From a virus (Duplodnaviria; Caudoviricetes): DNA of 58,921 bases. The notes beneath the pieces were generated by a model. It worked only from the letters and a program-made list of their open reading frames with translations. It ran no database searches and was not told where the DNA came from. The translations under genes and the position numbers were made by a program. Numbering within the stretch: the first letter of the stretch is position 1; each line of letters begins with the position of its first letter. Positions 2,830 through 51,759 of this stretch are shown here, piece by piece. The stretch lies in IMG/VR virus record IMGVR_UViG_3300049793_000053, positions 1 to 58,921 of that record; one strand, 5' to 3'.

Positions 2830-4653
2830 ATGTTGCCTGCCAAGCTCGGCGCAGCGCCCGTCACGCTCGTCGGCCTCGCGGCCGCGAACATCCGACGTGC
2901 GTACGATGAGATCGCCAAGGCGCGCGCGATCGCGTCGCTGATCTCGTTCGTCGAGCTGTTTTGGCCGATCATCGAACCGCGCCAACCGTTCGTGCGTGGC
3001 TGGGTTCAGGAAGCGATCGCGCGGCATCTCGAGGCGGTCTCGCGCGGCGAGATCGACAAGCTGTTGATCAACGTGCCGCCCGGGTTCAGCAAGAGCACGC
3101 TCGTCAACGTGTTCTTTGCGGCGTGGGAGTGGGGGCCTGGTCGTCGTCCCGATCTGCGTTACATCAGCTGGTCATACGCGATCCGGTTGACGAAGCGTGA
3201 TAACGGCCTGTGTCGGAAGATCATCGAAAGCGAGCTCTACCAACGGTTGTGGGGGCAGTGCGAACCGTGCAAGGCGCGGATCTCGAGTGCGCCGCGCTGC
3301 GCGAAGTGCGAAAAAGAAAAGCGGTTCCGCCTCGACGACGATCAGAATTCGATCGTCTTGTACCGGAACGATTGGGGCGGATTTCGGTTCGCGAGCTCGA
3401 TCGGCGGCGGCGGTACCGGGTACCGCGCCGATCGTCTGATCTTCGACGATCCGCACAGCGTACAAACGGCCGAGTCGGATGCGCAGCGACAGGAAACGAT
3501 CGATTGGTTCGCCGGCACGTTGCCGTCACGCGTGCGCAACACCGACGGATCCGTCGGCGCGAAGATCAAGTTGCCCGACTGGGTTCGGCGCGCGCACAAC
3601 GTCGACGAGGATGCCGAGGACGAGCAGCCCGTCAAGTCGGCCACGATCGGGATCATGCAACGCGTTCACCTCCGCGACGTGTCGGGCGTGATCCTCGAGA
3701 CGCCGGCGCTCGGCTATCAGCATCTCTTGATCGAGATGGAATACGCCGGCAACGAGCATCCGGCGCGCGTTGCCAATGACAACGGACGCGCGGCATCGCC
3801 GGGCACAGCGATCGGGTACATCGATCCGCGGCGTGCGCTGCTTGCATCGGTGCCGGAGGATCTGCCGGGTGACGACGCGCTATCGCAGATCGGAAACGTG
3901 TTCGCGCGCATCGGGATCGATCGCGCGACGCTCGCCGATCCGGTTCGCTACCCTCGGCACGAGTACGAAAAGCTCAAGCATCAGCTGTTGCTCAAGAGCG
4001 GATCGAACGCCGACGCCGCGCAGTACAAGCAGTGGCCGCAAGAGGACGGCGGCGACTACTTCCCGATCGAGATCGGTCGCAAGAACATCATTTCCGTCGC
4101 TGATCTGCTGCCGGCGAAGTGCGGGTTTCAGACGCGCGGCTGGGATCTCGCGGCGACGGACAGCAACAAAGCGGCCGCGACGTGCGGCACGAAGGGATGG
4201 ATCGACACGAAGGATCGCGTGATCATCCGGCACGTCGCGAAGTTGCGCGGCGGGCCCGACGCCGTCGAGGCATTTCTCAAGACGACCGCCAAGAATGACG
4301 GCGCGAACGTCCGGCAGGATCTACCGAAGGATCCCGGCGCGGCCGGCAAGGTCGTCGCGCACAGCTACACGAAGCTGTTGATCGGCCACGACGTCGCGAC
4401 GTCCCCCGAGCTCGGCTCGAAAGTGATCCGCGCGAACCCGCTGTCGGCGCAGTGGAAGATCGGAAACGTCTATCTCGTCGACGATGGCACGTGGGACGTC
4501 AAAGAGTACCTGCGGATCATGTCCGAGTTTCCGGTCGGCACGTTCAAAGACGAAGTTGACGCGACGGTGCGCATGCTCGACTCTCAGGTGCGAGCGCCCG
4601 TCGTTCAACGACCGCACGGCGGCCGGCGCGTGGCACTCGACGAGGACGCATGA
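2830..4653 (+). CDS. terL: Terminase large subunit
   Basis: LLINVPPGFSKST (Walker A), GTGYRADRLIFDDPH (Walker B), IMQRVH, RGWDLAA nuclease motif, FPVGTFKDEVDA. Confidence 0.93.
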   Translation: MLPAKLGAAPVTLVGLAAANIRRAYDEIAKARAIASLISFVELFWPIIEPRQPFVRGWVQEAIARHLEAVSRGEIDKLLINVPPGFSKSTLVNVFFAAWEWGPGRRPDLRYISWSYAIRLTKRDNGLCRKIIESELYQRLWGQCEPCKARISSAPRCAKCEKEKRFRLDDDQNSIVLYRNDWGGFRFASSIGGGGTGYRADRLIFDDPHSVQTAESDAQRQETIDWFAGTLPSRVRNTDGSVGAKIKLPDWVRRAHNVDEDAEDEQPVKSATIGIMQRVHLRDVSGVILETPALGYQHLLIEMEYAGNEHPARVANDNGRAASPGTAIGYIDPRRALLASVPEDLPGDDALSQIGNVFARIGIDRATLADPVRYPRHEYEKLKHQLLLKSGSNADAAQYKQWPQEDGGDYFPIEIGRKNIISVADLLPAKCGFQTRGWDLAATDSNKAAATCGTKGWIDTKDRVIIRHVAKLRGGPDAVEAFLKTTAKNDGANVRQDLPKDPGAAGKVVAHSYTKLLIGHDVATSPELGSKVIRANPLSAQWKIGNVYLVDDGTWDVKEYLRIMSEFPVGTFKDEVDATVRMLDSQVRAPVVQRPHGGRRVALDEDA

Positions 4654-45820: not shown

Positions 45821-46378
45821 TCACGACATCACTTCCCAGTCCGTCGCGATGTAGTCGTCGGGCGCGAGGTTGATCGGTAGCCCGACCAGGAGGTTGACGA
45901 ACGACGGCGCGTCGGGCGCGGCGCGGTGCGCGATCGGGTAGATGAACAGGTGCCGCTCGAGCATGTCGTGGGCGACCGCGCGATCTCCGGCGGCCGGGCC
46001 GCGCGTGATCCACTTGCGCCGGCGGATCGGGCGACCGCTTTCGATCGCCTCGACGAAGCCGACGAGGTTCGCCGACATGATGTTCGTCGCGTTGAGCTGC
46101 GCGGCGTAGTCGGAAGGCAGCTCATCGTTCGCCGGCGGCGGCACCTCGCGCACGATCGGCTCGGGCTTCGCGAGCACGCGAACGTCACCGATCGGAACGC
46201 TGTAGACCTGCCCGCTGTTGCTGATCGGCGCGACGTAGTAGCCCGTCACGACGGGCGGCGACGTCTCGCCGAACGTGACGCCCTCGACGGAGCACACGCA
46301 CCACGCGTCGATGATCACCGACGGAAGTCGCGCCTCGACTCGATCGCCCTCGTAGAACCGGCTCGGGTCCCGCTCCAT
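45821..46378 (-). CDS. Hypothetical protein
   Basis: C-terminal 'FVEAIESGRPIRR..W...DDYIATDWEV' resembles DUF2829-like small phage domains. Confidence 0.55.
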   Translation of the reverse strand: MERDPSRFYEGDRVEARLPSVIIDAWCVCSVEGVTFGETSPPVVTGYYVAPISNSGQVYSVPIGDVRVLAKPEPIVREVPPPANDELPSDYAAQLNATNIMSANLVGFVEAIESGRPIRRRKWITRGPAAGDRAVAHDMLERHLFIYPIAHRAAPDAPSFVNLLVGLPINLAPDDYIATDWEVMS

Positions 46379-46842
46379 CAGGGCACCATCGGCGTCGCAC
46401 GCGCGATCGTCTCGGCGGCGTCGATCAACTTCTGTTCGGCCGGCGACGGCTTGCGGGTGTAGTGCATGCCGTCGGGCTCGAGCACGATCGGTGCACCGAC
46501 GCGCACGGACACTTGGTTAAACTTCGACATGATCGCCGCGCCGAGATTGACCCCGAGGCGATACGACAGGATGTCGAGGTAGCACGCGACGTCGGCGCAC
46601 TCCTTCGCGATCTCCTCGCGGCACGCATCGAGCGTGGTGTCGCCGCGCTCGACTTTCTTGATCAGGTTCGCGAGCTCGCCGAGCTCGCCGAGCACGGCGT
46701 TACTCCACGTCGACGGCTTCCAATCTGAGCCATCGACTTCGCTGTGCGCGGGGCCACCCTTCGCGTTTTTGAACAGCGGGATCCGCGCGATGTTGCCAGC
46801 GCGCAGCGTGTTGAAAGTCAGTCCGTCGGTTCCGTATCCCAT
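46378..46842 (-). CDS. MazG-like nucleotide pyrophosphohydrolase
   Basis: GELGELANLIKK...KECADV...KFNQVS; GAGGAGG SD. Confidence 0.85.
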   Translation of the reverse strand: MGYGTDGLTFNTLRAGNIARIPLFKNAKGGPAHSEVDGSDWKPSTWSNAVLGELGELANLIKKVERGDTTLDACREEIAKECADVACYLDILSYRLGVNLGAAIMSKFNQVSVRVGAPIVLEPDGMHYTRKPSPAEQKLIDAAETIARATPMVP

Positions 46843-46858
46843 GTGATCCTCCTCGGTG

Positions 46859-48112
46859 CTAGAGAACAAGCGTGAGCTCGCGGCGAGCTCGAGTGACTGC
46901 GGTGTACAGATGCCGGTGTGCATCGTGGCCGAACGACTTCGACTCATCGAACACGACGACGTTTCCGAATTCTGATCCTTGCGACTTGTGCACCGTGATC
47001 GCGTAGCCGTAGGCGAATTCGTGCGCCTCGTTTTTCGTGTAGCCCTTGAGATCTTTCTCGCGGCCCTCGAAGTGGTGCAGCCATGCCGTCACGCCGATCG
47101 CACCGCCCTCGCGCTCCTCGTCGCCGTCGTCGTCCGAATCCCGGACAACGAGGTGCACGAGTCCGTTCGCGTGGTCCGGCGTCGCGGCAACGCAACGGTG
47201 CATGCCGCCGTTGAGCAAGCCGAGCTCGTGATCGTTGCGCAAGCAGATCAGCCGATCGCCCGGCACCGGGCCGGGCGCCATGCCGCGCAGCCGGCGGATC
47301 TTGTTGTTCGTGCCGTGGCGCGTGGCGTTGCGACCGACGAGCAGTTGATCGGCGGCGAGCGCGCGCTCCTCGATCCTGTAGTCGCCGTATCGCATGACGT
47401 CGACGCCCTCACCGAACGATCCGAGCTCGGGCCGCTTGCCGTGTCGGATCATCGTCGCAAGCCGGAGGATCGGCGAGTCGGCGGCCTGCCGATGGATCTC
47501 GGTGAGCATGAAGTCGGGATCGCGTTGCGTGAAAAATCCGAGGCCGGCAACGGGGGGCAGCTGTGCGGGATCACCGAGCACGAGCAGCGGGATCCCGAAC
47601 GACAGGAGATCGAGGCCGGTGCGCGCGTCGATCATCGAGCACTCGTCGGCGATGATCAACGCCGCGCCGTGCGCAGGGCCGAACGGATTCAGCCTGAACC
47701 GCGGGCCCTTGCGGTTCGCATCCTCTTTCGCGCGCGTGAGCCGATCGCCGGCGACAGCGAGCACAGCTTCGTCGAGCGGCACCGCAACGCGCGCGGCTTC
47801 GAGCTGCGCGGCGAGGATCGCGATCATTTGCGGCGTCGGTGGATCACCGCCGGACGCATAGATCAGCTTGTGGATCGTCGTCGCACCGGCGCACCCTTTC
47901 GACCTCAAGACGTGCGCAGCCTTGCCGGTAAACGCGCAGTACTCGACGCGGCCGTCGACGCCGGCGGCGAACAACTTCGCGATCGTCGTCTTGCCGCTGC
48001 CGGCGTTGCCGCCGAGGTAGAAGACTTGCCCCGGTGTGTTGGCCTTGGGTCCGGATCGGAACCAACGTGCGACGCGATCGAGCGCCGCGGCTTGCGCGTT
48101 TGATGGCTTCAT
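46859..48112 (-). CDS. RecD/Dda-like SF1B helicase
   Basis: GNAGSGKTT, AFTGKAA, DECSM, GDPAQLPPV, AITVHKSQGSE, LYTAVTRA. Confidence 0.92.
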   Translation of the reverse strand: MKPSNAQAAALDRVARWFRSGPKANTPGQVFYLGGNAGSGKTTIAKLFAAGVDGRVEYCAFTGKAAHVLRSKGCAGATTIHKLIYASGGDPPTPQMIAILAAQLEAARVAVPLDEAVLAVAGDRLTRAKEDANRKGPRFRLNPFGPAHGAALIIADECSMIDARTGLDLLSFGIPLLVLGDPAQLPPVAGLGFFTQRDPDFMLTEIHRQAADSPILRLATMIRHGKRPELGSFGEGVDVMRYGDYRIEERALAADQLLVGRNATRHGTNNKIRRLRGMAPGPVPGDRLICLRNDHELGLLNGGMHRCVAATPDHANGLVHLVVRDSDDDGDEEREGGAIGVTAWLHHFEGREKDLKGYTKNEAHEFAYGYAITVHKSQGSEFGNVVVFDESKSFGHDAHRHLYTAVTRARRELTLVL

Positions 48113-48136
48113 ATGGACAGGTTCCCGACGAAGAAA

Positions 48137-48224
48137 GGCCCTACTGGATGGAGTCGAACCATCACGGTCTAGCTCGCGACCTGTCCGACGCGAGCATCAA
48201 CCGTATCACCACTGATCCGTAGGA
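48137..48224 (-). ncRNA. tRNA-like cloverleaf element (not a canonical tRNA)
   Basis: T-arm GATGG-TTCGACT-CCATC, acceptor-like TCCTACGG/CAGTAGGG, D-like ATCA-GTGG-TGAT, extended central arm; no encoded CCA. Confidence 0.65.
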
Positions 48225-48260
48225 AAAGACGCGCGCCGAAGAGGGTAGCCGGCGCGCGTC
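48224..48260 (-). terminator. Intrinsic terminator downstream of the putative SSB gene
   Basis: GACGCGCGCCG-N11-CGGCGCGCGTC-TTTT. Confidence 0.7.
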
Positions 48261-48309
48261 CCGAGGTCGTCGTATCGCGAGCGGTCGACTGCTCGCTACG
48301 CGTCGGCCT

Positions 48310-49335
48310 CTAAAACGCCGATGCGGCTTCGCTCGTCGGTGCGCCGGTCGACTGCGGATCGTCGGCCTGCGTCGTCTCGTAGGCGCCGGCCTTCGCACCC
48401 TTCATGTACTGCTCGTGCAGCACCTTGGCGGCGATGTAGCGCTCGTCGTCGAGGCCGAGCAGCGATCGATCCATGCCGCTGCGGCCGTTCTTTTCGCTGA
48501 ACACCGGCGACAGATCCGGCACGTACCACGAGAGTTTCCCCTCCTGCCGGAACACCGTCGTGAGCCGCACGCGGTGCGCGAACATCGGCACCGGGGCCTT
48601 CGTGATCTTGCCGGTCGCGGCGTCCTTGACCTTGCTCTGATAGAGCGACACGTTCGTGTTCCACTCGCGGTACGCCTTGATCTTCGTCGAGGTGAACGAG
48701 ATCAGCACGGGGCCCTCGGCGTTCTTGCCGCCGAACACCGGCACGAGCTTGTCACCCTCGCGTTTCCACGCCTGGAACACGATGCCGGGCACCTCGTACG
48801 TCTCGACGAGCTCGGTGTCGGGCACGAGCTTGTTGTCGCGATCGAGCAGCGGCTTGCCGGCGGGGTCGAGATGCTTGAGCGGGATCTTACCGATGAACTT
48901 GCCGCCGTTCGCGTTGATCGCGTCGCGCACGATCTTGGCGTTCTTGGGATGACGGCCGCGGAAACCGCCGCCCTGTCCCTTTTCGTCGAGCGGCTTCCAC
49001 TCGGTGAACACGTGATCGGTGCCGGACGGAACGAAGTCGACCGCGTCGTAGATCTCGCCGGTGACGCTGTTGATGATCTGTCCGGCCTTCGCTTCACCCT
49101 TCGTCACGATCGGCGTGCCGGGTTGCAGGATGACGAGCATGGGGATCTTGCGATCGTCCATGTCCTGATTCTCGTGCCCCTTGCCGGCGTCGGTGCCGTA
49201 GTCCTCGGCGTCGAAAGTCGCCTCGTCGTCCTCGCGCTCGGCGAGCGCCTGCGTCTGCTGCGGCGCAGTCATCGCCTTGTTGTCCTCGGGTGCTGCTTCG
49301 GCCTTCGTGTTCTTGTTCTTGCTCGGAGTCGCCAT
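48310..49335 (-). CDS. Putative ssDNA-binding / recombination protein
   Basis: Located in the replication cluster; 'IPMLVILQPGTP', 'EW....GGGFRG.H', 'SFTSTKIK..REW'; acidic C-terminus ending in Phe. Confidence 0.55.
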   Translation of the reverse strand: MATPSKNKNTKAEAAPEDNKAMTAPQQTQALAEREDDEATFDAEDYGTDAGKGHENQDMDDRKIPMLVILQPGTPIVTKGEAKAGQIINSVTGEIYDAVDFVPSGTDHVFTEWKPLDEKGQGGGFRGRHPKNAKIVRDAINANGGKFIGKIPLKHLDPAGKPLLDRDNKLVPDTELVETYEVPGIVFQAWKREGDKLVPVFGGKNAEGPVLISFTSTKIKAYREWNTNVSLYQSKVKDAATGKITKAPVPMFAHRVRLTTVFRQEGKLSWYVPDLSPVFSEKNGRSGMDRSLLGLDDERYIAAKVLHEQYMKGAKAGAYETTQADDPQSTGAPTSEAASAF

Positions 49336-49424
49336 GGTCGTTTCGTTCCTTCGCTATTCGTTGACGCTCGAGACGGGGAATCCGCCGCGAGAAAAAGCAC
49401 GGTACGCGATCGGTCTGACGTCCG

Positions 49425-50042
49425 CTAGCCGCGGCCCGTCATGTCGCGGGTGATCTTCGCGATCTTCTGATCGAACACGTTGATCTTGTCGCGCGGCACT
49501 TCGGCGCCATCCTCGAGGAGCTCGCGGACGAGCTTCGATAGCGTCGTGTGGTGCACGTCCTTGACGGCTTCGACCTCGAAGCCGCGCGCTTCGAGTTCGA
49601 CGCGCAGCTCGTCGGCGCGGGCATCCTCGCCGCGCGATAGATCGACCCCCACGTGGTTCTTGATCACACCGCCGTGACCATTGGCAGCAAGCCACTCGAT
49701 CGCCGCGGCGCGCTTCGTGGGGTCGTCCTTGAGTGCCGGCAGTGATGCGCGGATCTTGCGGTCGATCGTGATCTTCGTCTTGTCGGCGAGCTTGCACTCG
49801 GAGAGCCGCATCGTGACCATGTGATCCGGGATCTCGCGCTCAACGAGATTCTTTAGCTTCAACTTCGCGGCTTCGAGATTCGCTTCGGCAAGGATCACTG
49901 CGTCGGACGCGACGAGCTCCTGTCCAACGAGATCTTCGAGCTGTGCGAAAGCGAGCTTTGCGTCGGCGGCCGCGACGTGCGATCCGGTGCCGTAGTTCGG
50001 AGCTTCCTCGGATGCCTCATCCGTCTCGATCTGATCGGTCAT
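49425..50042 (-). CDS. Conserved replication-region protein
   Basis: EIPDHM, AIEWLAANGHGGVIK, VHHTTLSKLVRE; common next to SNF2 helicase and SSB genes. Confidence 0.65.
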   Translation of the reverse strand: MTDQIETDEASEEAPNYGTGSHVAAADAKLAFAQLEDLVGQELVASDAVILAEANLEAAKLKLKNLVEREIPDHMVTMRLSECKLADKTKITIDRKIRASLPALKDDPTKRAAAIEWLAANGHGGVIKNHVGVDLSRGEDARADELRVELEARGFEVEAVKDVHHTTLSKLVRELLEDGAEVPRDKINVFDQKIAKITRDMTGRG

Positions 50043-50051
50043 GATGATCCC

Positions 50052-50068
50052 TGTTACCATCGTCAACA
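50052..50068. promoter_or_regulatory. Degenerate operator-like palindrome
   Basis: TGTTACC-ATC-GTCAACA just upstream of the 50042 start. Confidence 0.45.
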
Positions 50069-50097
50069 GATCGAACGCAAGCGCGATCGTAGATTTC

Positions 50098-51759
50098 TTA
50101 CGACAGCCACTCGCGGAGATCGTCGCCGACAACCTCCGCGGCGATCTTGTTTTTCTCGATCAGCGACTTTTGGATCTTTTCGTCGACGGTGCGCAGCGCG
50201 ACGAGGTCGTAGTACGTCACCGGGTTGTGTTGCCCGACGCGATGGCACCGGGCCTCGCTCTGGATCCGCTCGTCGTACTTGAAGCTATTCGAGTAGTAGA
50301 TCGCTGCTTTCGCCTCGACGAGCGTAACGCCTACGCCGATCGCGGCCGGGTTCGCGACGAAGAATTGCGCCTTATCCCCGCCGCGGAACGCGTCGATCGC
50401 GGCCGCGCGCGCCTTGCTCGACGTGACCGCGCCGTCGTAGCGGACGCAGCGATCGCCGAGCATCTTGCACAACCGATCGACGTCGTGCCGGAACCGCGCC
50501 CAAATGATCGCCTTGTACGGGATCGACGCGCAGAGATCGATCGCATGCAGCATGCGCGGATCGTCGAGCTCGTTGCCGGGCAACCGCATCGGCTCGGCGT
50601 CGGGGTCGTCGGGGTTAGGCAGGTAGCCGCACGCGATCTGTTGCAGCCGGAGGATCTTGACGATCGCGAGCGTCGCTGTCACGAGCTTGCCCTCGAGCTC
50701 GAGCATGCATTCGCGCTTGAGCTTGTCGTACGCGGCGCGCTGGATCGGCGCGAGCTCGAACGGGATCCGGGTGTAGAGCTTCGGCGGTAGATGGATCCCG
50801 GCTTGCTCCTTCGTGAGCCGCGACGTGATCGGCGCGATCATGCGGTGTAGCTTGTCGAGGTCGCGGTAGTACGCGATCACCTCGACGGTGCGGCCGCGGC
50901 TCGCCGGCACCGGCGACGCGGCTGCAGCAGCGACGGGGGCCTCCTCACCGTCGTCACCGGCGACCAGGTCGCCCGACTCCATCGCGAGCTCGAACGCCGC
51001 CGCATCGCCGACCACGGGTTCGGCGACGAGCTTGCGGCTCGACGCCGGCTCGCGCGCGGCTACACCGTCCGTCGGTGCCGCGATCACGATCTTGCGCTTG
51101 ACCGCGAACGTTGCCTCGAACGCGGTGTAGCTGGCGATCCCGTGGCGTCGCCAAAAGTGCTCATCGATCATCACGATCTGAGAGTAGAGATCGAGCGGCG
51201 AGTTGCCGACCGGCGTGCCGTTGAGGATCCGCACGCACGCCGCGGCGATCGCGACAGCCTTGCAGATCTTGGTTCGCGCGGTCGTCGCGCCGGCGACGCG
51301 GGACGACTCGTCGATCACGAGCATGTAGCGGGGGAACGCGCGACGAAACGCACGCGCGACCTCGAGTCCGGCCGGCGTCTTGAGGCCGTCGTAGGTCATC
51401 GCCAGCCACAGCAGACGGCCGCGACCGCCGAGCACTTGTGCGACGTCGGCGATCTGCTGCCGAACCTTCGCGCGCTGTGCATCCCAGTCGACGCCGATCC
51501 ACGGTGCGCGGCAGTGGCGCGGCAGCTCGTCGGTGATCCAATTGCGGTGCACGCCGTCAGGCGCGAGCACGATCACGCCGTCGATATGCTTGTTCTCGTA
51601 GAGCCGCACCGCCGTCTCGATCGTCGGGCGCGACTTCGCAACGCCGGGCTCCCATAGGATCCCGAAGCCGCGCACGTGCCACGTGTCGGCAACGAGCGCG
51701 GCCTGATGATCGAAGTCGTCGGCGAATTCGCGCTCGCCCAAGCCGCCGCCGAGGGTCAC
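50098..51759 (-). CDS. SNF2-family helicase
   Basis: VIDES, ILNGTP..NSPLDLYSQ, LRLQQI, GVGVTL, QSEARCHRVGQ; Walker A reads EPGVAKS. Confidence 0.9.
   Translation of the reverse strand: MTLGGGLGEREFADDFDHQAALVADTWHVRGFGILWEPGVAKSRPTIETAVRLYENKHIDGVIVLAPDGVHRNWITDELPRHCRAPWIGVDWDAQRAKVRQQIADVAQVLGGRGRLLWLAMTYDGLKTPAGLEVARAFRRAFPRYMLVIDESSRVAGATTARTKICKAVAIAAACVRILNGTPVGNSPLDLYSQIVMIDEHFWRRHGIASYTAFEATFAVKRKIVIAAPTDGVAAREPASSRKLVAEPVVGDAAAFELAMESGDLVAGDDGEEAPVAAAAASPVPASRGRTVEVIAYYRDLDKLHRMIAPITSRLTKEQAGIHLPPKLYTRIPFELAPIQRAAYDKLKRECMLELEGKLVTATLAIVKILRLQQIACGYLPNPDDPDAEPMRLPGNELDDPRMLHAIDLCASIPYKAIIWARFRHDVDRLCKMLGDRCVRYDGAVTSSKARAAAIDAFRGGDKAQFFVANPAAIGVGVTLVEAKAAIYYSNSFKYDERIQSEARCHRVGQHNPVTYYDLVALRTVDEKIQKSLIEKNKIAAEVVGDDLREWLS

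What the first reader, a model, noticed from the sequence alone, without database searches (positions are those of the whole stretch)
48113..48260. tRNA-mimic cloverleaf whose 'anticodon' loop can pair with the helicase start region
Seen (- strand, 48224 to 48137): UCCUACGG / AUCA-GUGG-UGAU / ACGGU-UGAU-GCUCGCG-UCGGACAGGU-CGCGAGC-UAG-ACCGU / GAUGG-UUCGACU-CCAUC / CAGUAGGG. This is a four-way junction with a canonical T-arm and T-loop, an 8-bp acceptor-like stem (one G-U pair, one mismatch), a mini D-arm, an over-long central arm and no CCA. The central loop GGACAGGU is the exact complement of ACCUGUCC at 48122-48115, which ends 2 nt before the AUG of the RecD/Dda helicase. The element starts right at the U-tract of a strong terminator. 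Inference: a cis-regulatory tRNA mimic or pseudoknot switch gating helicase translation, an RNase P/Z processing signal, or a decoy for tRNA-targeting defences. I do not recognise it as a named family.
Basis: partly seen in the sequence, partly recalled or inferred. Interest (0 to 1): 0.88.

Follow-up and report, generated by a model that had tools for sequence, protein, structure and literature searches.

The report
tRNA-shaped RNA before phage helicase
Between a terminator hairpin and the helicase gene of this uncultured soil phage lies a tRNA-shaped RNA with no anticodon, kept in shape in its two nearest relatives by matching changes on both sides of its stems, and most likely serving as a cutting signal for the host's tRNA-processing enzymes rather than as a working tRNA.

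Summary
An 86-nt cloverleaf lies on the - strand at 48224-48139. It has a canonical T arm, an 8-bp closing stem, a mini D arm and an over-long central arm, and no CCA. It starts at the U-tract of a hairpin and ends 26 nt before the Dda-like helicase AUG.

ARAGORN and Rfam do not call it, and alone its statistics are weak. A single-sequence covariance model nevertheless hit the same spot, just upstream of the helicase, in the two closest relatives (helicases 58% and 54% identical). All stems differ in sequence yet still pair; the T loop and D-loop GG are kept and the central arm varies freely. A 96%-identical metagenome variant shows no listed substitution in the element, against 13% at third codon positions.

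More distant relatives carry other anticodon-less tRNA bodies at the same boundary, usually 2-9 nt after a hairpin.

Best reading (about 0.45): a phage "t-element" cut by RNase P or a 3' tRNase in read-through transcripts. Its GGACAG/CUGUCC core recurs in one relative but not the other, so it is partly supported as a lineage-specific add-on. No RNA data exist.

The parts
48310..49335 (-). Upstream gene, Pam3 gp34-like protein (341 aa). Its stop marks the start of the intergenic region.
   Evidence: ORF. Pfam PF23977, E 1.1e-36. The same family lies upstream of the element in L206, L207, L315 and L326.
48263..48310 (-). Imperfect palindrome/hairpin directly after the stop codon.
   Evidence: Inverted repeat I1: 27-nt arms, 78% complementary. 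It is folded in the MFE of the whole intergenic RNA.
48224..48260 (-). Terminator-like hairpin with an 11-bp G+C stem (48260-48250 with 48238-48228) and an 11-nt loop, followed by UUUU (48227-48224). The last U is also the first position of the 8-position closing stem.
   Evidence: Sequence; I5 is 100% complementary. Relatives YuA, Sonora, Bhz59 and L208 have a terminator at the same place. X2 carries 2 substitutions here, one breaking a stem pair.
48217..48224 (-). Acceptor-like stem, 5' strand. It pairs with 48139-48146, with U.G first and a G.A mismatch at the 7th position. It can also be read as a 7-bp stem starting at 48223, plus a -1:73 wobble.
   Evidence: Ensemble pair probabilities are 0.996-0.999 for the five pairs after the terminal U.G (0.50); the eighth pair, next to the G.A mismatch, has 0.02. 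6 of 7 counted pairs change on both sides among the three phages. ARAGORN at relaxed thresholds draws the 7-bp version.
48205..48216 (-). Mini D arm: 4 bp with loop GUGG, and no 8-9 linker.
   Evidence: L206 has a 5-6 bp stem with loop GGGU; L207 has a mostly unpaired 12 nt with GGG. X2 lacks 2 nt here (place 48210) and keeps a GG.
48164..48204 (-). Over-long central ("anticodon") arm. It has an outer 5 bp (48204-48200 with 48168-48164), an internal loop, a perfect 7-bp stem (48195-48189 with 48178-48172) and a 10-nt loop (48188-48179) containing GGACAGGU.
   Evidence: pair probabilities 0.97-1.0. The arm is replaced by a 5-6 bp stem with a 9-nt loop in L206 and by a 4-bp stem with loop GAUA in L207.
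48147..48163 (-). T arm: 5 bp with loop UUCGACU.
   Evidence: The only exact GGTTCRANTCC in the window, and the only T arm with a fully paired 5-bp stem closed by a G-C pair and an abutting stem. The stem covaries (3 of 5 pairs change on both sides) and the loop is kept in L206 and L207.
48139..48146 (-). Acceptor-like stem, 3' strand, followed by CCU rather than CCA.
48113..48138 (-). 26-nt leader, with a weak GGGA Shine-Dalgarno-like run (48126-48123) and ACCUGUCC (48122-48115), the complement of the central loop. A local hairpin can also sequester the GGA and the AUG.
   Evidence: I20; local hairpin in the MFE; complement statistics.
46859..48112 (-). Dda/RecD-like SF1 helicase (417 aa).
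   Evidence: Pfam AAA_30, UvrD_C_2 and AAA_19. The best cultured relative is 45.1% identical.

Best explanation
The element is a conserved, tRNA-derived or tRNA-mimicking RNA without an anticodon, transcribed as part of the read-through RNA that runs from the gp34-like gene into the helicase gene.

What is shown: a cloverleaf is kept by compensatory change. Its invariant parts are the acceptor/T coaxial stack, the T loop and a GG in the D loop. Those are the parts of a tRNA that RNase P, 3' tRNases and the CCA-adding enzyme recognise.

What I infer: host RNase P cuts at the 5' side of the closing stem, between 48224 and 48223 by the 12-bp rule. That would leave the upstream mRNA ending a few nucleotides after its G+C hairpin. 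The helicase mRNA would then begin either with a base-paired tRNA-like cap or, after a second cut on the 3' side, with a 26-nt leader. The element would thus punctuate the operon and uncouple the fate of the two mRNAs, as plant-mitochondrial t-elements and the MALAT1/mascRNA module do.

In this phage and in L206 the free central loop can also pair with the helicase start region, which may tune translation.
For: (1) Family and position. The single-sequence model R1 gave 3 hits at E<=10 in 80 helicase loci (320 kb). The top two were in the two closest relatives, on the helicase strand, ending 5 nt (L206) and 105 nt (L207) before the start. The three-sequence model R2 scores 60-65 bits for these three and at most 33 bits elsewhere in 186 sources. 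Each phage record holds one copy.

(2) Covariation. 92.8% of cells pair, against 68% after shuffling and 33-49% with slid partners. 17 of 28 pairs change on both sides (0 of 500 shuffles reach this). L207's own MFE shows the closing stem, central hairpin and T arm; L206's shows the D hairpin and T arm, with the closing stem and central stem only partly formed.

(3) Constraint. In run X2 (96% identical), no substitution is listed in the 88 nt of the element. At the 13.1% third-codon-position rate, 11.5 would be expected (P 1e-5). The only change is a 2-nt deletion in the D loop.

(4) What is kept is the tRNA "top half"; the central arm is 41, 19-21 or 12 nt long.

(5) The same boundary holds other anticodon-less tRNA bodies, 2-9 nt after a hairpin, in more distant relatives.
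- L315 has a canonical body whose anticodon loop is replaced by a hairpin.
- L216 has a 44-nt central arm.
- L326 and L256 have acceptor+T only, followed by GCCA and CCCA.
- In L216, L256 and L326 the next ORF is not the helicase.

(6) That an acceptor/T minihelix suffices for bacterial RNase P, and that t-elements act as RNase P/Z signals for mRNA ends, is established knowledge. For the latter I read the abstract of Forner 2007, PMC1920247.
Against: There is no RNA evidence at all: no RNA run holds the region, so transcription, cleavage and ends are inferred.

The structure is imperfectly tRNA-like.
- There are no 8-9, 26 or variable-loop linkers, so an L shape is uncertain.
- The closing stem carries a purine-purine mismatch in all three phages.
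- In the window the T arm has only 7-8% probability in the thermodynamic ensemble, and a rod-like MFE competes.

The covariation rests on three sequences aligned by the model itself, which biases the counts.

The low-divergence tract in X2 also covers the last 26 codons of the upstream gene (P 0.034), so a recombination patch is not excluded. In addition, 7 rows of the difference table were not shown.

Homology between the window's family and the L315, L216, L256 and L326 elements is not shown; R2 gives them 15-18 bits.

The element occurs once per genome, not at many gene boundaries.
Confidence: 0.45

Rival explanations
1. Translational switch. The main job of the element would be to hold out a loop that pairs with the helicase ribosome-binding region as an H-type pseudoknot or loop-loop kiss. 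Depending on the fold, this would repress or activate initiation. It is not exclusive of the processing model.
For: The 8-nt complement lies at -10..-3: P 0.002 against shuffled start regions, duplex -14.8 kcal/mol. The GGACAG core is also in the 9-nt central loop of L206, whose ORF has CUGUCC at +6..+11 (P 0.036). The spacing differs (56 versus 42 nt), which fits RNA pairing better than a DNA operator. RNAfold puts this pairing into the MFE of the L206 intergenic RNA. The window and L206 have weak Shine-Dalgarno runs, while L207, which lacks the pairing, has GGAGG. From -30 to +11 the window's leader is unchanged in X2. My inference from known pseudoknots is that 2 loop nucleotides can span the groove of an 8-bp second stem.
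Against: L207 has a GAUA tetraloop and no significant complement (P 0.22-0.32). The motif is identical rather than covarying, so a shared protein site is as good an explanation. 8-nt perfect inverted repeats are common here (4 in 601 nt). In L216, L256 and L326 the tRNA-like element precedes another gene. A competing local hairpin already masks the AUG.
Confidence: 0.25
2. Released small RNA. The element would be cut out on both sides, like mascRNA, and act in trans as a stable tRNA-shaped RNA. It could work as a sponge or decoy for a host tRNA-binding protein or a defence nuclease, or as an antisense RNA through its loop.
For: The element has the features needed for excision by tRNA-processing enzymes. 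The L326 and L256 elements are followed by an encoded CCA, as a matured RNA would need. L207 gives a weak mascRNA match (15.4 bits, E 1.8).
Against: The window, L206 and L207 have no CCA. The anticodon loop, which is the target of known anticodon nucleases (recalled), is absent or variable. The two other ACCTGTCC/GGACAGGT sites in the genome are not at gene starts. There are no RNA data.
Confidence: 0.12
3. Decaying tRNA pseudogene. A former phage tRNA gene would have lost its anticodon loop and now be drifting without function.
For: It is not called by ARAGORN or Rfam. Relatives L315 and L216 look like canonical tRNA bodies with a ruined anticodon loop, so a tRNA origin is plausible. Most relatives have nothing here but a terminator.
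Against: The stems are kept by double changes across phages whose helicases are only 54-58% identical. There are 0 listed substitutions in 88 nt against 11.5 expected at the third-position rate. The inner 7-bp stem is perfect.
Confidence: 0.05
4. DNA-level signal. The element would act as a replication origin or primosome-type hairpins, a recombination or attachment site carrying a tRNA fragment, or an operator made of the GGACAGGT/ACCTGTCC inverted repeat.
For: It lies in the replication module, between two helicase genes. There is an inverted repeat, and a low-divergence tract in X2 that could be a recombination patch.
Against: The T loop is canonical on the transcribed strand only. The exact 21-mer of T arm plus 3' stem is in no bacterial tRNA: 1 hit in 185,579 species' genomes, inside a coding region with no tRNA there. 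The spacing of the repeat differs between the window and L206 (56 versus 42 nt). G.U pairs in the stems fit RNA, not DNA.
Confidence: 0.03

Closest known systems
t-elements of plant mitochondria (and the tRNA punctuation of mitochondrial transcripts)
   Same: Both are tRNA-like structures without decoding function that sit next to mRNA ends in polycistronic transcripts. t-elements are thought to be cis-signals for RNase P and RNase Z (Forner 2007, PMC1920247; abstract read).
   Different: This one is in a dsDNA phage of bacteria. It occurs as a single copy at one operon boundary, directly after a terminator-like hairpin. Its compact form lacks linker nucleotides, and cleavage has not been shown.
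MALAT1/MEN-beta mascRNA module (Rfam RF01684)
   Same: In both, a small anticodon-poor cloverleaf is embedded in a longer transcript. In mascRNA, RNase P cleavage creates the 3' end of the upstream RNA, which is protected by a structure just before the cut (recalled). L207's element gives a weak match to this model (15.4 bits).
   Different: mascRNA is eukaryotic. There is no sequence relation (gathering score 42.5 not reached). Here the upstream protector would be a simple hairpin, and a protein gene follows.
Bacterial tRNA-Sec (Rfam RF01852)
   Same: It is the best tRNA-clan match for all three phage elements (15.5, 19.8 and 17.5 bits). Shared features are a 13-position acceptor+T stack read as 8/5 and a D arm with a 4-nt loop (6-bp stem in L206). 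These are the features the review PMC7609411 gives for tRNA-Sec (passages read).
   Different: There is no long variable arm, no 7-nt anticodon loop, no UCA and no 8-9 linker. Scores are far below the cut-off of 47. The 8/5 reading can equally be 7/5 plus a -1:73 wobble.
tRNA-like domain of tmRNA
   Same: Both have an acceptor stem plus T arm, a reduced D region, and a long helix in place of the anticodon arm.
   Different: There is no G3.U70, no CCA, no mRNA-like part and no pseudoknots. The ARAGORN tmRNA search finds nothing even at a 70% threshold.
tRNA-mimicking or pseudoknotted translational operators (E. coli thrS leader, T4 gene 32 leader)
   Same: All are structured leaders next to the ribosome-binding site that borrow tRNA shape or a pseudoknot to control initiation (recalled).
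   Different: Those mimic the anticodon arm and bind a known protein. Here the anticodon arm is the variable part, no protein partner is known, and the pairing is found in 2 of 3 lineages only.
Bacterial YrlA / Y RNAs (Chen 2014, PMC4201824; seen in a search listing only)
   Same: Both are non-coding RNAs, also reported from phages, that mimic the tRNA acceptor/T/D region.
   Different: As I recall it, YrlA is circularly permuted relative to tRNA: its ends form the Ro-binding stem and the acceptor is closed. Here the ends form the acceptor-like stem. There is no Rfam match.

Membership tests
Canonical tRNA (Rfam RF00005 / ARAGORN) | Detected by standard tRNA finders at default thresholds | tested here: not met
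   ARAGORN finds 0 genes in the window and none with introns allowed at the default threshold. Rfam at gathering scores finds 0.
Canonical tRNA (Rfam RF00005 / ARAGORN) | 7-nt anticodon loop with U33 on a 5-bp stem | tested here: not met
   The 5-bp stem carries a 31-nt insert with its own 7-bp stem and 10-nt loop. L206 has a 9-nt loop and L207 a GAUA tetraloop.
Canonical tRNA (Rfam RF00005 / ARAGORN) | T arm: 5 bp, loop UUCRANY, closing G-C pair | tested here: met
   48163-48147. It is kept in L206 and L207.
Canonical tRNA (Rfam RF00005 / ARAGORN) | Linkers 8-9 and 26, and a variable loop of 4-5 nt or more | tested here: not met
The alternative ARAGORN fold that has linkers is 15 kcal/mol less stable than the MFE.
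tRNA-Sec (RF01852) | Reaches the family's gathering score (47 bits) | tested here: not met
   15.5 bits (window), 19.8 (L206), 17.5 (L207).
tRNA-Sec (RF01852) | 13-bp acceptor domain (8/5) and a 6-bp D stem with a 4-nt loop | tested here: inconclusive
   The 8+5 positions are present, with one mismatch. The D stem is 4 bp in the window, 5-6 bp in L206 and mostly unpaired in L207. Feature list taken from PMC7609411.
tRNA-Sec (RF01852) | Long variable arm and an anticodon loop (usually UCA) | tested here: not met
   There is only one arm between the D and T arms, and no 7-nt loop.
tmRNA | tRNA-like domain with G3.U70 and CCA, plus a tag reading frame and pseudoknots | tested here: not met
   ARAGORN -m finds nothing at a 70% threshold. 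Position 3:70 is U-A or C-G, and there is no CCA.
t-element / mascRNA-type processing signal (a functional class) | tRNA-like fold with intact acceptor/T stack and T loop, dispensable anticodon arm, embedded beside an mRNA | tested here: met
   Relatives L315, L216, L326 and L256.
t-element / mascRNA-type processing signal (a functional class) | Cleaved by RNase P (5') and/or a 3' tRNase in vivo or in vitro | not testable with these tools
   No RNA run holds the region. An enzyme assay or end mapping is needed.
Cis-acting translational pseudoknot | Loop-to-start-region pairing kept, ideally by covariation, across relatives | tested here: inconclusive
   It is present in the window (8 nt) and in L206 (6 nt, same letters, different position) and absent in L207. 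X2 is unchanged at both partners.

The most novel reading that the evidence does not exclude
The element would be a new kind of phage riboregulator built on a tRNA chassis. The tRNA-shaped body would dock to host tRNA-handling machinery: RNase P, or even the ribosome's tRNA-elbow contacts. Its re-purposed "anticodon" loop would base-pair with the start region of the helicase mRNA. Processing would then decide whether the loop acts in cis or in trans, and the poorly Shine-Dalgarno-led helicase mRNAs of the window and L206 would be switched on or off through a tRNA-mRNA pairing that mimics codon-anticodon contact.

More broadly, this phage group would use a whole class of anticodon-less tRNA bodies as operon punctuation. 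That would be the first bacterial-virus counterpart of mitochondrial t-elements.
Probability: 0.15. Interest if true: 0.82.

Novelty: new variant of a known kind. Interest (0 to 1): 0.66.

Why it matters
Phage tRNA genes are usually read as codon-usage helpers or counter-defence spares. Here a tRNA body is kept by selection while its anticodon is discarded, at a fixed place between two transcription units of the replication module.

If RNase P cuts there, host tRNA-processing enzymes would set mRNA ends and stability in a dsDNA phage. That mechanism is documented for organelles and for a few cellular RNAs, but five full-text literature searches found no description of it for phage operons.

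The finding also has two practical consequences:
- Automatic annotation will either miss such elements (window, L206, L207) or mislabel them as working tRNAs. ARAGORN calls L315 tRNA-Gly, L216 tRNA-Thr, L256 tRNA-Pro and L326 tRNA-Leu.
- It yields a compact RNA family, with two covariance models built here, that can be searched in viromes.

The GGACAG/CUGUCC pairing gives a directly testable case of a tRNA-shaped leader touching its own start codon region.

Tried and rejected
Searches and ideas that led nowhere:
- **Close relatives by helicase (single-protein search).** Viral contigs gave 1 locus at 29% identity. Metagenome contigs gave 80 loci, the best at 45%. None carried the element (R1 on 85 sources hit only itself).
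- **Single-protein searches from the L206 and L207 helicases** found nothing above 47% identity apart from the queries themselves. A second alignment-based scan added no close relative.
- **Cultured phages.** The best helicase identities are 45.1%, 45.4% and 43.1%. blastn of the element gave only 27-nt T-arm matches at E 4, and blastn of the region matched only inside the helicase gene.
- **Exact 24-mer of the element in viral contigs:** 0 hits.
- **Two gapped patterns in viral contigs:** 88 and 32 stretches. They were almost all ordinary phage tRNA clusters, and R1's best hits among them were tRNA-Leu genes.
- **Exact 21-mer in genome contigs:** 1 hit, inside a coding region of an Aromatoleum genome with no tRNA there. 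I take it as chance, so no donor tRNA and no attB-like match was found.
- **A repeated GCTCGCG...CGCGAGC hairpin family.** 6 sites against 0.52 in shuffles looked interesting. It was rejected because both 7-mers are very common words (74 and 69 copies; 1.5 pairs expected; 4 in the reversed control order).
- **GGACAGGT as a genome-wide motif.** There are 4 exact sites, 2 of which are the finding itself. The other 2 are inside structural-gene ORFs, and with 1 mismatch the count is 36 against 29.6 expected.
- **ARAGORN at 60-80% thresholds** draws an alternative cloverleaf. It also drew between 1 and 3 other tRNAs that it does not call at default in the same 401 nt, depending on the run, so this is not evidence.
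- **MAFFT alignment of the three elements** was not structural and was not used. A filter-off search gave chance hits of 15-24 bits inside the window, so L206's 19 bits counts only because of where it lies.
- **Sigma-70 promoter scan:** 0 sites in 46000-50500.
- **No RNA holder listed** for the region. Two DNA runs were laid, and X1 may be the source sample.
- **Not used:** Complex prediction, structure prediction and protein-homology searches, because the question is about RNA.
- **Supplementary files of papers** were not opened.
Full report
**Setting**

The window is a whole IMG/VR virus record of 58,921 bp, estimated 91% complete. Structural genes lie on the + strand and the replication and early genes on the - strand. 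Around the finding, the - strand encodes, in order:
- an SNF2-type helicase (51807-50098);
- a Pam3 gp33-like protein;
- a Pam3 gp34-like protein (49335-48310);
- a 197-nt intergenic region;
- a Dda/RecD-like helicase (48112-46859);
- further on, a family-A DNA polymerase.

The same gene order is found in YuA-, Sonora-, Bhz59- and Pam3-like siphophages. The best cultured relative's helicase is only 45.1% identical.

**The observation**

Read on the - strand, the intergenic region holds four things:
- an imperfect hairpin right after the stop codon (48310-48263);
- an 11-bp G+C hairpin with an 11-nt loop (48260-48228), followed by UUUU;
- a 26-nt leader.

- an 8-position closing stem with a U.G first pair and one G.A mismatch;
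- a 4-bp D arm with loop GUGG;
- a central arm of 5 bp, an internal loop, a perfect 7-bp stem and a 10-nt loop;
- a 5-bp T arm with loop UUCGACU;
- no linkers and no CCA.

The loop octamer (48186-48179) is the exact complement of 48122-48115, which ends 2 nt before the AUG.

**Taken alone, the case is weak**

- ARAGORN calls nothing in the window.
- Rfam has no match at gathering scores. The best tRNA-clan match in a 501-nt search is tRNA-Sec at 15.5 bits (cut-off 47, E 3).
- A canonical T arm appears somewhere in 29% of dinucleotide shuffles of the genome, and a T arm with an abutting acceptor-like stem in 15%.
- The MFE of the element is a rod at -37.7 kcal/mol. In the ensemble the T arm has 7-8% probability, while the closing stem and central arm are near 1.
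- The z-score against shuffles is -1.9.
- Perfect 8-nt inverted repeats are common here: 4 in 601 nt.

**Relatives decide it**

Single-protein searches found no close relative. The gaps of Sonora, Bhz59, YuA, L006 and L208 hold only a terminator and a ribosome-binding site.

An alignment-based scan of IMG/VR then returned two closer phages, L206 and L207. Their helicases are 58% and 54% identical to the window's.

The single-sequence covariance model R1, run over all 80 loci of that scan (320 kb), gave three hits at E<=10. The best two were in exactly these two phages, on the helicase strand and inside the gp34-like/helicase gap:
- L206 1428-1496, which leaves 4 nt between its last base and the AUG;
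- L207 1328-1384, 105 nt before a GTG start that follows a GGAGG.

The bit scores are not significant on their own: 19.1 and 13.4, and a filter-off run gives chance hits of 15-24 bits. Their positions are what is significant.

Both relatives show the same plan: an 8-position closing stem with a wobble first pair and one purine-purine mismatch, a D region with GG(G), a central hairpin, and a 5-bp T arm with loop UUCGA(C/U)U.

On the model-made alignment A5:
- 92.8% of cells pair, against 68% after shuffling and 33-49% with slid partners;
- 17 of 28 pairs change on both sides (0 of 500 shuffles);
- in the closing stem, 6 of 7 pairs change on both sides; in the D stem 4 of 4; in the outer central stem 4 of 5; in the T stem 3 of 5.

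The alignment was fitted to the structure, which inflates such counts. However, L207's own MFE shows the closing stem, central hairpin and T arm, and L206's shows the D hairpin and T arm with the closing and central stems only partly formed.

The three-sequence model R2 scores 60-65 bits on the three and finds no further member in 186 sources. The next best is 32.9 bits, for a different tRNA-like on the other strand of L338/L339. Each phage record holds one copy.

**A near-identical variant**

One other soil metagenome run (X2) has a 2.2-kb contig 96% identical over 47600-48800.
- 31 of the 38 substitutions listed in the two genes are at third codon positions, which gives 13.1% at third positions and 1.5% at first and second positions.
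- The 88 nt of the element show none (11.5 expected at the third-position rate, P 1e-5).
- The whole 197-nt gap shows two, both in the terminator hairpin.
- The only change in the element is a 2-nt deletion in the D loop that leaves a GG. That is the one place where tRNAs vary in length.

Two caveats apply. Seven rows of the difference table were not shown. The last 26 codons of the upstream gene are also unchanged (P 0.034), so a recombination patch cannot be excluded.

**What is conserved, and what that suggests**

The invariant parts are the acceptor/T coaxial stack, the T loop and the D-loop GG. The stack reads as 8/5, or as 7/5 plus a -1:73 wobble. The central arm is 41 nt in the window, 19-21 nt with a 9-nt loop in L206, and 12 nt with a GAUA tetraloop in L207.

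These RNAs therefore cannot decode. What they keep is what RNase P, 3' tRNases and the CCA-adding enzyme recognise (established knowledge).

All three elements give tRNA-Sec as their best Rfam clan match (15.5, 19.8 and 17.5 bits). The reasons are the 13-position stack and the 4-nt D loop, which the review PMC7609411 lists as tRNA-Sec features. They lack its variable arm and its anticodon loop, so they are not tRNA-Sec.

**The wider boundary**

ARAGORN and my own T-arm script picked up other odd tRNA bodies just after the gp34-like gene in more distant relatives.
- **L315** (1271-1350) folds as a textbook cloverleaf with normal linkers, D arm and variable loop. Its anticodon loop, however, is replaced by an extra 4-bp helix and a tetraloop.
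- **L216** (340-435) has a perfect acceptor, D and T arms and a 44-nt central arm.
- **L326** (1037-1083) is only acceptor, a 16-nt connector and a T arm, followed by GCCA.
- **L256** has a 40-nt acceptor+T element followed by CCCA (3467-3506) and a second candidate at 891-936.

In the window, L206, L315, L216, L326 and L256 (the element at 3467), a G+C hairpin ends 2-9 nt before the first paired base of the element.

In L216 and L326, and at both L256 elements, the next ORF is not the helicase. For L216 and L326 this is the gene boundary that follows the gp34-like gene, so there the element goes with the boundary rather than with the helicase. The L256 gene contexts were not confirmed.

Homology of these four with the window's family is not shown; R2 gives them 15-18 bits. 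They may be separate captures of tRNA genes at a favoured spot.

**Mechanism**

I commit to a processing signal, at about 0.45. RNase P would cut read-through transcripts between 48224 and 48223. The upstream mRNA would then end just after its hairpin. The helicase mRNA would start either with a paired, tRNA-shaped 5' cap or, after a 3' cut, with a short leader of 26 nt here and about 4 nt in L206.

This is the logic of plant-mitochondrial t-elements (Forner 2007, abstract) and of MALAT1/mascRNA (recalled). All of it is inference from anatomy. There is no RNA run for the region and no enzyme data.

It is exact and, for a start region, unlikely by chance (P 0.002; duplex -14.8 kcal/mol).
- *In favour:* its GGACAG core recurs in the 9-nt central loop of L206, whose ORF has CUGUCC at +6..+11 (P 0.036). 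RNAfold even uses that pairing in the MFE of the L206 leader. The window and L206 have weak Shine-Dalgarno runs.
- *Against:* L207, with a strong Shine-Dalgarno sequence, has neither the loop nor a significant complement. The letters are the same in both phages, so this is conservation rather than covariation.

I rate a translational role at 0.25 as the main function. It is compatible with the processing model as an add-on in one sub-lineage.

The remaining rivals rate lower: a released trans-acting or decoy RNA 0.12, a drifting pseudogene 0.05, a DNA-level signal 0.03.

**Novelty**

Five literature searches returned tRNA-like elements of RNA viruses, organelles, Y RNAs and RNase P model substrates. 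None described an anticodon-less tRNA-like element in a dsDNA-phage operon. Supplements were not seen, and subscription journals are not covered.

I class the element as a new variant of a known kind, namely tRNA-like processing or regulatory elements. It is unknown to Rfam release 15.

Noticed in passing
L109 7703-7631 (- strand), IMG/VR contig of 369 kb: A 70-nt tRNA-like gene that ARAGORN does not call, sitting inside a tRNA cluster between tRNA-Phe and tRNA-Met. It has a 7-bp acceptor, no 8-9 linker, a 4-bp D stem with a GG tetraloop, a 7-bp anticodon stem, a normal 7-nt loop with U33 and anticodon ACG, and an encoded CCA. It was the best non-self hit of model R1 in the first pattern-scan set (26.4 bits, E 0.042; a phage tRNA-Leu gene in the second set scored 27.0). 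It looks like a working but non-canonical tRNA-Arg.
   Followed up: partly
L315 1271-1350: ARAGORN calls this tRNA-Gly(tcc). Its MFE is a perfect cloverleaf whose anticodon loop is replaced by an extra 4-bp helix and a CAUG tetraloop, so it is probably not a decoder. It lies between the gp34-like gene and the helicase, 4 nt after a GCCGGC hairpin.
   Followed up: partly
L216 340-435: ARAGORN calls this tRNA-Thr(tgt), 99 nt. It is a perfect tRNA body with a 44-nt central arm (z -2.59). It lies 4 nt after a hairpin that follows the upstream ORF, whose C-terminus resembles the gp34-like proteins (no family search was run on it), and 12 nt before the ATG of an extra ORF.
   Followed up: partly
L326 1037-1087: A 47-nt acceptor + connector + T-arm element followed by GCCA. 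It lies 2 nt after a hairpin whose loop holds the stop codon of the gp34-like gene. ARAGORN reports a 91-nt tRNA-Leu(tag) that overlaps the coding region.
   Followed up: partly
L256 3467-3510 and 891-936: Two small acceptor+T-arm elements in intergenic regions of one phage. The first lies 2 nt after an 8-bp hairpin and is followed by CCCA. ARAGORN reports the second as a 100-nt tRNA-Pro(tgg).
   Followed up: partly
L338 / L339 3480-3403 (- strand): A 78-nt tRNA-like sequence downstream of the helicase on the opposite strand. It scores 32.9 bits (E 2e-4) with model R2, and ARAGORN does not call it.
   Followed up: no
window 48297-48230 and L206 1345-1422: The two hairpins that precede the element give the same weak Rfam match (Caulobacter sRNA CC1840; 22.7 and 20.0 bits against a cut-off of 50) in both phages. 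This probably reflects only two G+C hairpins in tandem.
   Followed up: no
L207 1386-1470: Between the tRNA-like element and the helicase start, L207 has an extra domain closed by an 11-bp long-range stem around a GCCGGA...UCCGGC hairpin. Its function is unknown.
   Followed up: no
L003 (phage Sonora) 2288-2494: The 284-nt gap before the Sonora helicase is annotated with a 68-aa ORF on the opposite strand. The gap has no tRNA-like element; R2 gives only a 20.6-bit match, to its terminator.
   Followed up: no
window 48098-48101: In run X2 the first differences from the window after the start codon begin at codon 4. One of them changes codon 5, while everything from -30 to +11 is unchanged.
   Followed up: no
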